Below, one piece after another: positions 12,957 to 16,098 of a stretch of DNA of 25,248 nucleotides (positions within the stretch are counted from its first letter, which is position 1; each line of letters starts with the position of its first letter). Source of the stretch: a virus (lineage: Duplodnaviria; Heunggongvirae; Uroviricota; Caudoviricetes); the IMG/VR virus record IMGVR_UViG_2700989400_000006, positions 1 to 25,248 of that record, one strand, 5' to 3'. The position numbers and the translations under genes were made by a program. Below the pieces are notes generated by a model. That model did no database searches, had not been told where the DNA came from, and saw nothing but the letters and a program-made list of their open reading frames with translations.

Positions 12957-12977
12957 GGCCTACTGACGAAGTAGGCC
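12957..12977 (-). terminator. Hairpin terminator candidate at the 3' end of the three-gene cassette
   Basis: GGCCTACT / AGTAGGCC form a perfect 8-bp stem with a 5-nt loop. On the minus strand CCTTTTCC follows, a short U-run. The hairpin begins 18 nt after the stop of gene 3. Confidence 0.55.
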
Positions 12978-12994
12978 TGAGTTCCTTATATATT

Positions 12995-13651
12995 TCACAA
13001 AATTCTGAGAGTTTCTAAGATGGATAAAAGTGTTGGAAGCTGACTCTCTCTCACACGGAATCTACCCGTCCTAGATAATTCCGTTTCAATTCCGTTAACG
13101 AAGAAATGTACGGAATCAAAAACGGCCGAACTATTCATGTATTTATTCTGATAAATTTCTTGGAGATTCTTTGAGCTTACTATTTTTGTCTTTGCTAAAG
13201 TAAAAGGATCAACAGAGATATTAGATAGAGACATGGATTTTATCTTGATGTCAAAGCCCTCAGAAAGACCATTTACAATTTTTCTCAGATCAAATTCTAC
13301 TGGTCTCAAGCCACTATCTTCACCAAATAGTTTTTGCACCATAGTATAAGGCACTTTCATACTTAATGGAGGATTAGTGGCATATAGTATGATTTTTTTC
13401 CCTTGTCTGACGCCAAAGTCCACATTTAAGTAAGTTGCTATTTCAACCTCTGAACGCTCGCCATTAGCATATTCTAAGCTTTGCTTGCTAATGCTTCTCA
13501 TGGTAAATCTTAGTTTAAGCACTTCAGAGTTATTAATGATTTGAAAACCATATCCTTTATCTTCATCATAGAGGTTGTCATTTACTTTATGTAATAACTC
13601 ACTTTTAGTTATATCCTTTTCTGCTTTATAAATTTTTACCTTTATCATCAT
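12995..13651 (-). CDS. Cassette gene 3: hypothetical protein (218 aa), no recognisable family
   Basis: ATG 13651 (MMIKVKIYKAEKD...) is preceded by GGAGG with a 5-nt spacer and overlaps the stop of gene 2 (ATGA). The region is about 30 % G+C by hand count. I saw no TM segment and no catalytic motif. Confidence 0.85.
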   Translation of the reverse strand: MMIKVKIYKAEKDITKSELLHKVNDNLYDEDKGYGFQIINNSEVLKLRFTMRSISKQSLEYANGERSEVEIATYLNVDFGVRQGKKIILYATNPPLSMKVPYTMVQKLFGEDSGLRPVEFDLRKIVNGLSEGFDIKIKSMSLSNISVDPFTLAKTKIVSSKNLQEIYQNKYMNSSAVFDSVHFFVNGIETELSRTGRFRVRESQLPTLLSILETLRIL

Positions 13652-14895
13652 CCAGCCTCCTGATTCAAAGTCTCGCAAGACATAGCTTTCGTTACTGGGT
13701 ATCGCTTGGTATGCTCTTCGATAATAAAGTCATTAATCAAAAATATTTTATCTTCTAATTGTTTCATGACTTGATCAAAGTCTGCGTCACTGAGTTTTTC
13801 TCTCTCTGCGGATGCAGAGTTGCTTTCTTTGTATAACGCTCTGAATTTTATATTTTTCCCAAGATATTTATCATCGAAACTAAGTTCAAAAGTTATAGTA
13901 TGATTCTTAACTACTGAGGAAAATGACTTCCATCGAATTAAGCTTCGATAAAACCCATCACTGCACAGTTCCTTAATTTGAGGTGCGTTCACTAATGATA
14001 GGCCATCATACGCGGCATTGTTAATGTTAAAAGTTAGGTTTTCATCATCGTCAGATGCCATTTCCTGATTATTAATGTCATCATCATTTTCGTTATCTGT
14101 AGAAGGTGAAATCTTGTTTAATAACTCTTGTGTTTCTTCGTTATTATTTCCTTCGAGATTATCTCCATTAATATCCAGAGATGTTTTTATTCTGCTTACT
14201 CTAACCTTTTCAAGACCAGCATATTCAAGTCCTGTTTTTTTATAATTTCCATCAAAATCATAAAGATGAACAGCAAAAATATTCCTAAGATCTGTATCAA
14301 CGATACTTGATAAATCTATTTCGTTGACAACTATGTTGTTACAAACTGTTGATGAATATGTATCAATTATTTGCTTGAGAATTTCTGAAATGCGTGGCGT
14401 ATAGTTATATCTTACTGAAACATATCCTTTTTTTACTATAAAAACTATACTCCCACTGTACAATTTTTTCTGCTGAAACTTACCCCTTCTAAAATCAAAC
14501 TCAGTATAATCAATAGATATATGATAGGTTTGCAAGCCTGAGTAATGATCAATTTTCTCATGCCCTAGCAACTTGGGTCTATTTTCTTTCACTTTGTTTA
14601 CAACGTCATAGAGTTTCTCTATATCAAATTCTTCATATATACGTTTTACTGAGAAGACGTCTTGGCTGGGTTTGGTTGCCAGTTTATCTTGTACTTCTCT
14701 GATGTGATTATATGAAAATGGCAGGTCTGATAATTTTTCTATCAATACCTCTTTTGATAAGTTAGATGGGAAAATTATCCCTCTATTGAAGGCGATTTTC
14801 CTTAATGTAACATCTGTGATTTTTGCACTGTTAGAGTGGAGGGCGGTATAAATGTCACTTTCGTTTGAAAACAACGTAGCTTGATATTTATTCAT
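13648..14895 (-). CDS. Cassette gene 2: hypothetical protein (415 aa), two domains joined by an acidic Asn/Asp-rich linker
   Basis: This is a track ORF. ATG 14895 has AAGGAG 7 nt upstream and lies 10 nt after the gene 1 stop. The linker covers residues about 241-286 (DINGDNLEGNNNEETQELLNKISPSTDNENDDDINNQEMASDDDENL). I recognise no family, Walker motif or TM segment. Confidence 0.85.
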   Translation of the reverse strand: MNKYQATLFSNESDIYTALHSNSAKITDVTLRKIAFNRGIIFPSNLSKEVLIEKLSDLPFSYNHIREVQDKLATKPSQDVFSVKRIYEEFDIEKLYDVVNKVKENRPKLLGHEKIDHYSGLQTYHISIDYTEFDFRRGKFQQKKLYSGSIVFIVKKGYVSVRYNYTPRISEILKQIIDTYSSTVCNNIVVNEIDLSSIVDTDLRNIFAVHLYDFDGNYKKTGLEYAGLEKVRVSRIKTSLDINGDNLEGNNNEETQELLNKISPSTDNENDDDINNQEMASDDDENLTFNINNAAYDGLSLVNAPQIKELCSDGFYRSLIRWKSFSSVVKNHTITFELSFDDKYLGKNIKFRALYKESNSASAEREKLSDADFDQVMKQLEDKIFLINDFIIEEHTKRYPVTKAMSCETLNQEAG

Positions 14896-14905
14896 GTCAT
14901 ACTCC

Positions 14906-15997
14906 TTATGAAAAGTGACATTTTCTATTCACCTGCTTGCTGGCAACCTGGTACTCAAATATAGATAGCTTTTGATTAACAAAAGGAATGGATACTATTT
15001 TTTCCTTTAACGTTTCTATATGAGATTGAGTGAAAGAATATATTCCTATGTAATCATTAATGGCGGATTGCAAATGAATGCTTGAGTGTGATGAGAACGG
15101 AGTTATAACAAATATTTTGTTAAATTGATTGAGTAATTGATAGTTAAATATATACTCTAAAAGAAATATAAAGTGGTTACTGGAATCAATCTCTTCCTTC
15201 CAGAATATATTCAATATTTTATTTCTTATTCTATCGCCACCATCATTTCTAATATATTCGTGTTCATATGAGTAAAAAATCATCCCAGATGTTATCATTT
15301 CAATTGTGGCTGGAAGGATTTTCCCTTTCGTTGCTATTTTATTATGTTTGTCAGGGTAAAAATATGTACAGTTCTCTATCTCAGGAATTTTTTGCCATAA
15401 CATATTTGTTTCTTGTGTTACTTTGTCAGTAATTCCTCTTCTAGTCTCGATGTGTTCTGTAACATCTAGTAAAAATCTGATCATAGTTGGGTCAAAAACG
15501 GCAATCACAGAGTTCTCTGGAAAATCATAACTTGCTGTGGCTGCTCCATTTAATTTCTCAATTAAATCAGAGTCATATTTATTGTCATGATTATATATAA
15601 AAAGTAGGCCGTTAACTTGATATTTCTCATTTGTGCTGTCAACAAATAGACGCCGCCACTCAGGACTTCTTGGCGCGCAAGCTACCTGTTGTGATAAACT
15701 TCGTACAGTGTTCAATATTGATTTTGTACCGTCAAGCGTGCTGGCACAATAAGATTTTAAATCTGTTTGTATATACTGAGTTATATCTGAATAAGGATCT
15801 TTATATTTGAAGACTACATCCGTAGGATGAGTTTTTTTTGGGTTTTCAGATAAAAGTTGTTTAGCGTTTAGATGAGATCTCAAACAACAGTCCCAACTTA
15901 TATCCGTTGTATTTTGGGTTTTCCAGCCTAACTCATCAAAAATTCTACTGGAAATGATACCTGCAATCTCATCAATATTCTTAGTTTCGCCGCCCAC
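14906..15997 (-). CDS. Cassette gene 1: hypothetical protein (363 aa) with an N-terminal PD-(D/E)xK nuclease-like motif
   Basis: GTG 15997 has GGAGG 4 nt upstream. The arrangement is E22 (IFDELGW), then D60 (HPTDVVFKY), then D79-L-K81 (YIQTDLKSY). This fits the helix, strand(D), strand((D/E)xK) core of restriction-endonuclease-fold enzymes. I recognise nothing in the C-terminal 190 aa or so. Confidence 0.85.
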   Translation of the reverse strand: MGGETKNIDEIAGIISSRIFDELGWKTQNTTDISWDCCLRSHLNAKQLLSENPKKTHPTDVVFKYKDPYSDITQYIQTDLKSYCASTLDGTKSILNTVRSLSQQVACAPRSPEWRRLFVDSTNEKYQVNGLLFIYNHDNKYDSDLIEKLNGAATASYDFPENSVIAVFDPTMIRFLLDVTEHIETRRGITDKVTQETNMLWQKIPEIENCTYFYPDKHNKIATKGKILPATIEMITSGMIFYSYEHEYIRNDGGDRIRNKILNIFWKEEIDSSNHFIFLLEYIFNYQLLNQFNKIFVITPFSSHSSIHLQSAINDYIGIYSFTQSHIETLKEKIVSIPFVNQKLSIFEYQVASKQVNRKCHFS

Positions 15998-16069
15998 GCT
16001 TCCTCCATAGTTCGTTGTTTTATCTAGTGAAGATCTGATTCATGGTTTTCCAAGCCCATGCGCAAAACA

Positions 16070-16098
16070 ATTAATCAAGTAAGAATAATCTTAATCAA
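16070..16098 (-). promoter_or_regulatory. Sigma70-like promoter candidate for the three-gene cassette
   Basis: The minus strand reads TTGATT (16093..16098), a 17-nt spacer, then ATTAAT (16070..16075). It sits in the AT-rich leader about 70 nt upstream of the gene 1 start. Confidence 0.4.

What the first reader, a model, noticed from the sequence alone, without database searches (positions are those of the whole stretch)
12957..16098. AT-rich, translationally coupled three-gene cassette (363/415/218 aa) of unknown function in the relBE slot of a Qin-like prophage: candidate novel defence or abortive-infection system
Seen in the sequence: (1) Three minus-strand ORFs (14906..15997, 13648..14895, 12995..13651) are separated by a 10-nt gap carrying AAGGAG and by an ATGA stop/start overlap, so they form one operon. 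(2) Hand counts of single 60-nt lines give about 30 % G+C inside versus 50-65 % in the flanking replication and hok regions, so the block looks horizontally acquired. ORFs of 0.66-1.25 kb in such stop-rich DNA are very unlikely to be accidental. (3) The cassette has its own promoter candidate (16070..16098) and a terminal hairpin (12957..12977), so it could be an autonomous moron expressed in the lysogen. (4) Protein 1 carries a PD-(D/E)xK-like motif. I recognise nothing in proteins 2 and 3. I saw no Walker A, HNH, TIR, SIR2, RT or TM signature in any of them. Established knowledge: in K-12 Qin the position directly upstream of hokD(relF) is occupied by relBE, and the replication/nin junction of lambdoid phages is a recurrent site for TA and defence cargo. 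Inference: this is a nuclease-effector system with two novel partner proteins (sensor, regulator or antitoxin) acting on superinfecting phage. I cannot exclude that it corresponds to a system catalogued only under a screen name, such as a three-hypothetical-protein set from E. coli functional screens.
Basis: partly seen in the sequence, partly recalled or inferred. Interest (0 to 1): 0.88.

Follow-up and report, generated by a model that had tools for sequence, protein, structure and literature searches.

The report
Divergent 3HP anti-phage cassette in prophage
The three-gene block is real, but it is a distant relative of the already catalogued '3HP' anti-phage system; its proteins look like a DNA-cutting enzyme plus two ring-type DNA-binding proteins, which gives a testable idea of how this unexplained system works.

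Summary
Three translationally coupled minus-strand genes (363/415/218 aa) sit in a 33% G+C block between the DUF977 gene and sok/hokD of a Qin-like prophage, where K-12 has relBE.

The cassette is not a new system. All three proteins match PADLOC models Hp1/Hp2/Hp3. They are also homologous, in the same order, to the validated 'hp+hp+hp' (3HP, Rst_3HP) system of Rousset et al. 2022, which protects against P1 (33/25/22% identity; E 7e-49, 7e-12, 2e-12).

What this work adds:
- Hp1 is a PD-(D/E)xK nuclease homologous to GAPS4a (hhalign 98.1%). The D60 and D79-x-K81 residues are invariant.
- Hp2 is a remote GAPS4b homologue.
- Hp3 has no GAPS4 counterpart.
- The trio is present in 56 of 62 Hp1 loci; five of the six exceptions are cut by contig ends.
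- The 3.36-kb unit (12863-16219) also occurs next to conjugation genes in another strain.

Most likely mechanism (inferred): RdgC-like Hp2/Hp3 sense DNA ends or aberrant DNA and license the Hp1 DNase, giving abortive infection as in GAPS4. Verdict: new member of a known kind, moderate interest.

The parts
12863..16219 (-). Mobile cassette unit: the three genes plus 222 bp upstream and 132 bp downstream
   Evidence: This span is 96.8% identical in one block to a copy in E. coli TD225-C4. That copy lies between an integrase fragment, an IS3 and trbL/trbJ, not in a Qin-like prophage. It coincides with the point where widespread flank homology stops (about 12886 and about 16197). G+C is 0.338.
14906..15997 (-). 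hp1: PD-(D/E)xK nuclease, 363 aa, GAPS4a-like (predicted effector)
   Evidence: PADLOC Hp1 7.6e-41. 33% identity, E 7e-49 to the validated E1114 Hp1. All 72 homologues carry precomputed PF26115 PDDEXK_GAPS4. H57-P58-D60 and D79-L80-K81 are invariant. hhalign vs GAPS4a gives 98.1%, E 1e-13.
13648..14895 (-). hp2: 415 aa; SAP-like helical N-domain, RdgC-like body split by an acidic disordered loop (residues 244-300); remote GAPS4b homologue
12995..13651 (-). hp3: 218 aa, basic (pI 9.2), RdgC-like fold; no counterpart in GAPS4
14896..14911 (-). hp1-hp2 junction: the stop codon lies inside TAAGGAG, then a 10-nt gap
   Evidence: Read directly from the sequence.
13648..13660 (-). hp2-hp3 junction: GGAGG followed by an ATGA stop/start overlap
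   Evidence: Read directly from the sequence. Overlaps or gaps of 15 nt or less at this junction are the rule in related loci.
12957..12977 (-). GC-rich hairpin after hp3; plausible intrinsic terminator with a short U tract
   Evidence: Sequence. -17.1 kcal/mol, z -3.08. Not flagged by the strict terminator scan.
15998..16219 (-). Upstream non-coding region that travels with the cassette; presumed promoter region, promoter not located
   Evidence: Included in the block shared with the unrelated TD225-C4 context. An AT-rich stretch at about 16077-16113 is conserved with a 76%-identity relative, L011. No consensus sigma-70 site was found here.

Best explanation
The block is a divergent member of the 3HP (Rst_3HP, 'hp+hp+hp') anti-phage defence family. 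It is carried as a self-contained 3.36-kb AT-rich module in the variable DUF977-hokD slot of a Qin-like lambdoid prophage.

Shown here:
- All three proteins are homologous, in the same order, to the validated 3HP system.
- The three genes are almost always found together.
- Hp1 is a PD-(D/E)xK protein homologous to the GAPS4a nuclease and has intact catalytic residues.
- Hp2 and Hp3 both model as the RdgC fold, the toroidal non-specific DNA-binding fold.
- Hp2 also has a SAP-like N-terminal domain and is a remote homologue of GAPS4b.

Inferred:
- Hp2 and Hp3 assemble into an RdgC-type ring or horseshoe. It may be a heterodimer, as in Iml3-Chl4.
- This assembly binds DNA and detects free DNA ends or aberrant DNA produced during infection.
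- Hp1 docks on Hp2, as GAPS4a is predicted to dock on GAPS4b.
- Once DNA is sensed, Hp1 is licensed to degrade phage and host DNA, so the infected cell dies before phage are released (abortive infection), as reported for GAPS4.

The prophage would express the cassette from its own upstream region in the lysogen.
For: Family identity:
- PADLOC Hp1/Hp2/Hp3 hits.
- Rousset et al. [quoted passage not shown] Its sequences are in Table S2A, pFR109.
- BLASTP to them gives 7e-49, 7e-12 and 2e-12.

Co-occurrence:
- 56 of 62 Hp1 loci have Hp1-Hp2-Hp3 in order. Five of the six exceptions are contig ends.
- Adjacent locus tags occur in Yersinia, Morganella, Vibrio and Shewanella.

Mobility and hotspot:
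- 11 of 5426 complete E. coli genomes carry the cassette.
- The same slot holds relBE, a DUF5677 gene or two hypothetical genes in other prophages.
- The same unit occurs next to trb conjugation genes.
- Relatives sit in the P2 portal/gpA hotspot.

Nuclease:
- Invariant HPxD...DLK.
- hhalign to GAPS4a 98.1%. Hp1 D60 aligns with the GAPS4a aspartate whose alanine mutant abolishes defence.
- The GAPS4a HMM hits only Hp1 among 3384 background ORFs.

Partners:
- RdgC forms ring dimers that bind DNA in a basic pore, and Iml3-Chl4 is a heterodimer of the same fold.
- GAPS4b is predicted to form a ring with GAPS4a docked on it. GAPS4 is a break-triggered non-selective DNase.
- Hp2 vs GAPS4b hhalign 96.5%.
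- Hp3 has pI 9.2 and Hp2 residues 1-243 have pI 8.85.
Against: - No experiment exists on this copy or on any member of its clade. Identity to the validated system is only 22-33%, and Hp2 aligns by BLASTP over its N-terminal half only.
- The 3HP mechanism has never been studied, so the model is borrowed from GAPS4.
- The Hp2-GAPS4b link is remote and asymmetric. The narrow window-clade profile gives E 0.038, and the GAPS4b HMM finds no Hp2.
- Hp1 has a canonical D-x-K where GAPS4a has S-x-K. GAPS4 has no Hp3. Regulation may therefore differ.
- The Hp1 fold was not modelled here.
- RdgC-like folds also serve non-defence roles such as recombination control and kinetochore assembly.
- Complex formation and stoichiometry are untested.
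- The validated 3HP protected only against P1 in an 8-phage panel. That is narrower than expected for a generic DNA-end sensor.
Confidence: 0.7

Rival explanations
1. It is a defence system of the 3HP family, but with a different trigger or outcome. Hp2/Hp3 would recognise a specific phage protein or phage-specific DNA structure. Hp1 would then cut phage DNA directly, without host DNA degradation or cell suicide.
For: The validated 3HP protected only against P1 among eight phages, which suggests a specific trigger. Hp1 has a canonical D-x-K site unlike GAPS4a. The extra Hp3 has no GAPS4 counterpart, so regulation may have diverged. RexA, another RdgC-like exclusion protein, does not strictly need DNA binding for exclusion.
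Against: Both partner proteins have a non-specific DNA-ring fold and are basic. The closest characterised relative degrades host and phage DNA.
Confidence: 0.17
2. It is a phage recombination or replication accessory module serving the prophage's own life cycle. An RdgC-like pair would modulate RecA or replication restart, and the nuclease would process DNA ends. It would not be an immunity system.
For: RdgC itself modulates RecA and replication restart. The cassette lies between replication genes and the nin-like region (DUF968, antiterminator) of a lambdoid prophage, where recombination accessory genes occur.
Against: It is homologous to a system shown to block P1 when cloned alone and to GAPS4. 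It is absent from most related prophages, being present in 11 of 5426 genomes. It is replaced by unrelated cargo in the same slot. It is also found in the P2 defence hotspot and beside conjugation genes. Its foreign G+C content points to acquisition.
Confidence: 0.06
3. It is an addiction (toxin-antitoxin-like) module. Hp1 would be a toxin held in check by Hp2/Hp3, stabilising the prophage in the slot where relBE sits in K-12.
For: It occupies the relBE position next to hok/sok. It combines a nuclease with tightly coupled partner genes.
Against: There is no similarity to any TA family in Pfam, NCBIfam or PADLOC beyond Hp1-3. The partners are 218 and 415 aa proteins with DNA-ring folds, not small labile antitoxins. 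A natural ISApl1 insertion in hp2 is tolerated with hp1 intact in strain 30COLEC, which argues against Hp2 being an essential antitoxin. In GAPS4 neither gene alone protects and no toxin-antitoxin behaviour is reported.
Confidence: 0.04
4. It is inactive, decaying cargo with no current function.
For: It is rare. One copy is disrupted by ISApl1. No promoter could be pinpointed.
Against: The three ORFs are intact, and chance cannot produce them in 33% G+C DNA. The catalytic and other invariant residues are retained. Ten of 11 E. coli copies are intact at 97% identity or more.
Confidence: 0.03

Closest known systems
3HP / Rst_3HP ('hp + hp + hp', pFR109, E. coli E1114 P2-like prophage; Rousset et al. 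2022, PMC9122126)
   Same: Three co-directional, tightly coupled genes in the order Hp1-Hp2-Hp3. All three proteins are homologous. The system is prophage-borne in a variable cargo slot. No Pfam domains are recognised in Hp2 or Hp3.
   Different: Identity is only 33/25/22%, and the proteins are 363/415/218 aa against 333/359/227 aa. The window cassette belongs to a separate clade. It sits in the DUF977-hokD slot of a lambdoid Qin-like prophage rather than the P2 hotspot between the portal gene and gpA. Its activity is untested.
GAPS4 (GAPS4a + GAPS4b; Mahata et al., bioRxiv 10.1101/2023.03.28.534373 and 10.1101/2025.09.07.674715)
   Same: Hp1 is homologous to GAPS4a over about 215 columns, including the catalytic aspartate and lysine. 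Hp1 homologues fall in Pfam PF26115 PDDEXK_GAPS4. Hp2 is a remote homologue of GAPS4b, has similar length and occupies the same position downstream of the nuclease gene. GAPS4b is predicted to form a ring, which fits the RdgC fold found here for Hp2.
   Different: GAPS4 has two genes or one fused gene, and there is no Hp3 equivalent. The active-site motif is HGxD-SxK in GAPS4a against HPxD-DxK in Hp1. The GAPS4 papers do not mention 3HP or RdgC. GAPS4 protects broadly, whereas 3HP was reported to protect against P1 only.
RdgC (recombination-associated DNA-binding protein; PDB 2OWL, 2OWY)
   Different: Sequence identity is 7-9% and there is no Pfam RdgC hit. Hp3 is about 80 residues shorter than RdgC. 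Hp2 carries an extra SAP-like domain and a 57-residue acidic loop. RdgC is a housekeeping homodimer with no partner nuclease.
Lambda RexA of the RexAB exclusion system
   Different: The structural match is much weaker than to RdgC itself. RexA works with the membrane protein RexB, not with a nuclease. No transmembrane partner is present here.

Membership tests
3HP / Rst_3HP defence system | Three adjacent co-directional genes in the order Hp1-Hp2-Hp3 | tested here: met
   ORFs and junctions. PADLOC Hp1, Hp2 and Hp3 hit genes 1, 2 and 3 respectively.
3HP / Rst_3HP defence system | Each protein homologous to the validated E1114 proteins | tested here: met
   BLASTP gives 7e-49 (Hp1, residues 1-308), 7e-12 (Hp2, residues 9-207 only) and 2e-12 (Hp3, residues 2-206). 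Iterated HMMs join both clades into one family.
3HP / Rst_3HP defence system | Obligate co-occurrence of the three genes | tested here: met
   56 of 62 Hp1 loci have all three. Five exceptions are contig ends and one (L003) lacks Hp3.
3HP / Rst_3HP defence system | Anti-phage activity when cloned (P1 in the original report) | not testable with these tools
   Only the E1114 system was tested.
GAPS4 defence system | GAPS4a-type PD-(D/E)xK nuclease subunit | tested here: met
   hhalign 98.1%, E 1e-13. Precomputed PF26115 on all homologues. The GAPS4a HMM hits only Hp1 ORFs. The local Pfam copy lacks PF26115 (control).
GAPS4 defence system | Non-canonical active-site motif HGxD-SxK | tested here: not met
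   Hp1 has HPxD ... D-L-K, invariant in 51 sequences.
GAPS4 defence system | GAPS4b partner subunit | tested here: inconclusive
   The broad Hp2 profile vs GAPS4b gives hhalign 96.5%, E 7e-10, and the Hp2 HMM hits 6 of 12 GAPS4b ORFs and nothing else. The narrow profile gives E 0.038 and the reverse HMM search finds nothing.
GAPS4 defence system | Two-gene (or fused single-gene) architecture | tested here: not met
   The cassette has three genes. Hp3 has no homologue in 12 GAPS4 loci.
GAPS4 defence system | DNase activity triggered by DNA breaks; abortive infection | not testable with these tools
   Reported for GAPS4 only.
PD-(D/E)xK nuclease superfamily | Conserved acidic and lysine catalytic residues (D ... 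(D/E)xK) | tested here: met
   D60, D79 and K81 are invariant and E4 is nearly invariant.
PD-(D/E)xK nuclease superfamily | Restriction-endonuclease-like alpha-beta-beta-beta-alpha-beta core fold | not tested
RdgC family | RdgC fold | tested here: met
RdgC family | Sequence membership (Pfam RdgC) | tested here: not met
   No Pfam or NCBIfam hit at E up to 1. 7-9% identity in the structural alignments.
RdgC family | Ring-shaped dimer that encircles DNA | not testable with these tools
   No multimer prediction is available. This is inferred only from the fold and from the GAPS4b ring prediction.
relBE type II toxin-antitoxin | RelE/RelB homologues | tested here: not met
   No such Pfam, NCBIfam or PADLOC hits. 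Only the genomic position is shared.

The most novel reading that the evidence does not exclude
3HP and GAPS4 are two branches of one superfamily of defence systems. In this superfamily an RdgC-type toroidal DNA clamp acts as the sensor of free DNA ends or broken DNA and gates a docked PD-(D/E)xK DNase. In 3HP the homodimeric GAPS4b ring would be replaced by a pseudo-symmetric Hp2-Hp3 hetero-ring, as in Iml3-Chl4. The 57-residue acidic disordered loop of Hp2 would serve as a DNA-mimicking plug that keeps the pore and the nuclease off until real DNA displaces it. Neither the RdgC link nor the 3HP-GAPS4 link is stated in the papers held here.
Probability: 0.35. Interest if true: 0.7.

Novelty: new member of a known kind. 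Interest (0 to 1): 0.45.

Why it matters
3HP has been listed in defence catalogues since 2021-2022. A 2024 survey still described it as three proteins that fit no domain family, and no mechanistic study was found.

The analysis of this cassette has three consequences:
- It gives 3HP a concrete, testable architecture: a GAPS4a-like nuclease plus two RdgC-fold DNA binders.
- It ties 3HP to GAPS4, a system with a known trigger (DNA breaks).
- It adds RdgC-type DNA rings, alongside lambda RexA, as a recurring sensor scaffold in phage exclusion.

It also shows that the DUF977-hokD junction of Qin-like prophages is a swap site for cargo: relBE, DUF5677, 3HP and unknown gene pairs. That site could be mined for further systems.

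For the scan itself, the practical lesson is that this 'novel' candidate is detectable with existing PADLOC models.

Tried and rejected
- Pfam and NCBIfam scans of the three proteins gave nothing meaningful. The Pfam negative for Hp1 is a library-version artefact: a bona fide GAPS4a also scores nothing.
- PHROGs gave only 'unknown function' families.
- Profile searches of all three alignments against PDB sequences gave no significant hit.
- Megablast against the phage collection gave no match.
- The exhaustive profile search with Hp1 gave the family size (571 representatives). Only the top 150 are listed, all full-length Hp1-type, so GAPS4a-level relatives could not be read from it.
- The narrow window-clade Hp2 profile vs GAPS4b is not significant (E 0.038). 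The GAPS4b HMM vs 3HP-locus ORFs gave no hits.
- Hp3 vs GAPS4a or GAPS4b, and Hp2 vs Hp3 at sequence-profile level, showed no similarity. The shared RdgC fold of Hp2 and Hp3 is therefore visible only in the structure models.
- The afdb50 fold library was unavailable.
- The sigma-70 scan does not support the proposed promoter.
- PADLOC on the alternative cargo in the same slot (DUF5677 gene; two hypothetical genes) gave no real hits.
- Literature searches found no mechanistic work on 3HP.
- The relBE/TA reading was rejected for lack of any homology.
- The RexAB reading was rejected: the structural match is weak and there is no membrane partner.

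
Full report

Yes. Three minus-strand ORFs lie at 14906..15997 (363 aa, GTG start with GGAGG 5 nt upstream), 13648..14895 (415 aa) and 12995..13651 (218 aa). RefSeq annotates identical coordinates in a 99.9%-identical copy. The first stop codon sits inside TAAGGAG, 10 nt before the next ATG. The second junction is an ATGA overlap preceded by GGAGG.

The coding block is 33.4% G+C, against 46.8% for the rest of the window. In 300 shuffles of the block the longest stop-free run was 167 aa, so the ORFs are not accidental.

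The hairpin after gene 3 is real (-17.1 kcal/mol, z -3.1), but its U tract is short and the strict terminator scan does not flag it. The proposed promoter at 16070-16098 fails the consensus scan, and promoter-like sites here are at chance level. In K-12-lineage Qin, relE-relB lie directly upstream of hokD. In the window, sok and hokD lie at 12377-12551 and about 12227-12382.

**2. What is it?**

PADLOC models Hp1, Hp2 and Hp3 (PDLC03004-6) hit genes 1, 2 and 3 at 7.6e-41, 9.6e-11 and 3.8e-11. Rousset et al. [quoted passage not shown] Its proteins (pFR109, 'hp + hp + hp', E. coli E1114; 333/359/227 aa) are given in their Table S2A.

Direct BLASTP to the window proteins gives:
- Hp1: 33% identity, E 7e-49.
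- Hp2: 25% identity, E 7e-12, over residues 9-207 only.
- Hp3: 22% identity, E 2e-12.

The gene order is the same. DefenseFinder lists this system as Rst_3HP and notes that it is mostly prophage-borne.

**3. Distribution and mobility**

The cassette is in 11 of 5426 complete E. coli genomes. Both flanks are in more than 4000 genomes, and shared homology stops at about 12886 and about 16197. In other prophages the same slot carries a DUF5677 gene, two hypothetical genes, or relBE.

A 96.8%-identical copy spanning window 12863-16219 lies in strain TD225-C4 between an integrase fragment, an IS3 and trbL/trbJ. The unit therefore moves with 222 bp of upstream and 132 bp of downstream sequence.

Close homologues occur in Enterobacterales, Vibrio, Aeromonas and Shewanella, with adjacent locus tags for the three genes. 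Sixty viral-contig loci were retrieved. After HMM iteration, 56 of 62 Hp1-bearing loci have Hp1-Hp2-Hp3 in order. Five exceptions are contig ends, and one (Kiritimatiellae, L003) lacks Hp3. Two relatives that were checked (L036, L018) sit between the portal gene and the gpA-like nickase of P2-like phages, one of them (L018) at 54% identity to the window Hp1. Another relative (L012) sits next to tail genes. The Hp1 family has 571 representatives at 50% clustering.

**4. Hp1**

H57-P58-x-D60 and D79-L80-K81 are invariant in 51 sequences down to 26% identity, and E4 is nearly invariant. All retrieved homologues carry precomputed Pfam PF26115 'PDDEXK_GAPS4'. My own Pfam scan missed it because the local library lacks that model.

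GAPS4 is a two-protein defence system from GMT islands. GAPS4a is a PD-(D/E)xK enzyme with the motif HGxD-SxK, and mutating the aspartate abolishes defence. [quoted passage not shown]

I aligned GAPS4a sequences from that preprint's File S1. hhalign of Hp1 against GAPS4a gives 98.1% probability, E 1e-13, over 215 columns. Hp1 D60 aligns with the essential aspartate, and D79-x-K81 aligns with S-x-K. A GAPS4a HMM hits only Hp1 ORFs among 3384 background ORFs. I did not model the Hp1 fold.

**5. Hp2**

Twelve GAPS4 loci show a 302-317 aa GAPS4a gene followed by a 367-397 aa GAPS4b gene and no conserved third gene. A broad Hp2 profile covering both 3HP clades aligns to GAPS4b with 96.5% probability, E 7e-10, over 249 columns. 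The Hp2 HMM hits six GAPS4b ORFs and nothing else in those loci.

The link is remote. The narrow window-clade profile is not significant, and the reverse HMM search is empty.

**6. Hp3**

Hp3 is basic (pI 9.2). It has no detectable counterpart in GAPS4 loci and no sequence-profile similarity to Hp2.

**7. How it most likely works**

Established knowledge, from the lambda RexA structure paper:
- RdgC forms ring-shaped dimers that bind DNA non-specifically in a basic central pore.
- The same fold forms the Iml3-Chl4 heterodimer on centromeric DNA.
- Lambda RexA is a weaker RdgC relative.

The GAPS4 authors predict a GAPS4b ring with GAPS4a docked on its helical domains. They do not mention RdgC or 3HP.

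Inference: Hp2 and Hp3 form an RdgC-like ring or horseshoe, possibly a heterodimer, that binds DNA and reports free ends or aberrant DNA during infection. Hp1 is held on Hp2 and then degrades DNA, giving abortive infection. The acidic loop of Hp2 could be an autoinhibitory DNA mimic; this is speculation.

The homologies, the folds, the co-occurrence and the mobility are shown. Complex formation, the trigger, the target and the outcome are inferred.

**8. Rivals**

Four rivals were considered:
- a 3HP system with a specific trigger and no abortive outcome, which the P1-only spectrum favours;
- a recombination accessory module;
- an addiction module;
- dead cargo.

The last three are disfavoured by four observations: the homology to cloned, validated defence systems; the patchy distribution with cargo swapping; a tolerated ISApl1 insertion in hp2 with hp1 intact; and the conservation of catalytic residues.

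**9. Novelty and verdict**

The cassette is a new, divergent member of a known kind (3HP). It sits in a lambdoid rather than a P2 hotspot. It is not a new system.

The added value is interpretive. In the literature held here, 3HP had no assigned domains or mechanism. The data link it to GAPS4 and to the RdgC fold, which makes its mechanism testable. Interest is moderate (0.45).

**10. Limits**

- No multimer modelling was possible, there is no Hp1 model, and the afdb50 library was unavailable.
- The Hp2-GAPS4b homology rests on remote profile evidence.
- The hhalign E-values are for single comparisons, not for a database search.

Noticed in passing
window 12887-16197; L004 5831-6856; L005 2921-4900; L066 4315-4841: The junction between the DUF977 gene and sok/hokD of Qin-like prophages is a cargo-swap site. 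It holds 3HP here, a DUF5677 gene in E. coli 55989, two hypothetical genes (333 and 320 aa) in strain WP4-S17-ESBL-08, and relBE in the K-12 lineage. The DUF5677 gene and the two-gene cargo have no PADLOC hit and could be uncharacterised defence candidates.
   Followed up: partly
L079 (NZ_CP035860.1) 3414-6770: A 96.8%-identical copy of the whole cassette lies outside any Qin-like prophage. It sits between a truncated integrase, an IS3 and P-type conjugation genes trbL/trbJ. The cassette therefore moves between prophages and conjugative or integrative elements.
   Followed up: partly
L080 (NZ_CP070930.1) 2199-4518: In strain 30COLEC an ISApl1 (IS30-like) element is inserted in hp2 and splits it in two, while hp1 and hp3 stay intact. 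This is a natural hp2 knock-out that is evidently tolerated.
   Followed up: no
L003 (Kiritimatiellae MAG) 1-8110: A distant Hp1-Hp2 pair without a recognisable Hp3 sits directly downstream of a PLD/SNF2-helicase gene and an MmeI/Eco57I-like methyltransferase gene. This is a defence-island-like neighbourhood. It may be a natural two-gene intermediate between 3HP and GAPS4.
   Followed up: partly
window 12377-12551 (-) and 20429-20480 (+): Rfam finds the sok antitoxin RNA next to hokD (111.7 bits) and the DicF sRNA (76.7 bits). Both confirm the Qin/dic-type prophage backbone.
   Followed up: yes
window 12552-12862: About 310 bp between sok and the cassette boundary carry no annotated gene, yet part of this stretch is conserved in many prophages (flank homology reaches about 12886). 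Only a 115-aa TTG ORF (12598-12945) of doubtful coding value overlaps it.
   Followed up: no
Hp2 residues 244-300 (window about 13996-14166): A 57-residue disordered insert with 16 acidic residues and 1 basic residue interrupts the RdgC-like body of Hp2. The E1114 Hp2 has a shorter acidic stretch at the equivalent place, and the GAPS4b alignment shows a gap there.
   Followed up: partly
tool library (Pfam copy): The local Pfam-A copy lacks PF26115 (PDDEXK_GAPS4). A bona fide GAPS4a scores nothing, although the precomputed tables list the family for all Hp1 homologues. Negative Pfam results for recently described defence domains should be read with that in mind.
   Followed up: yes
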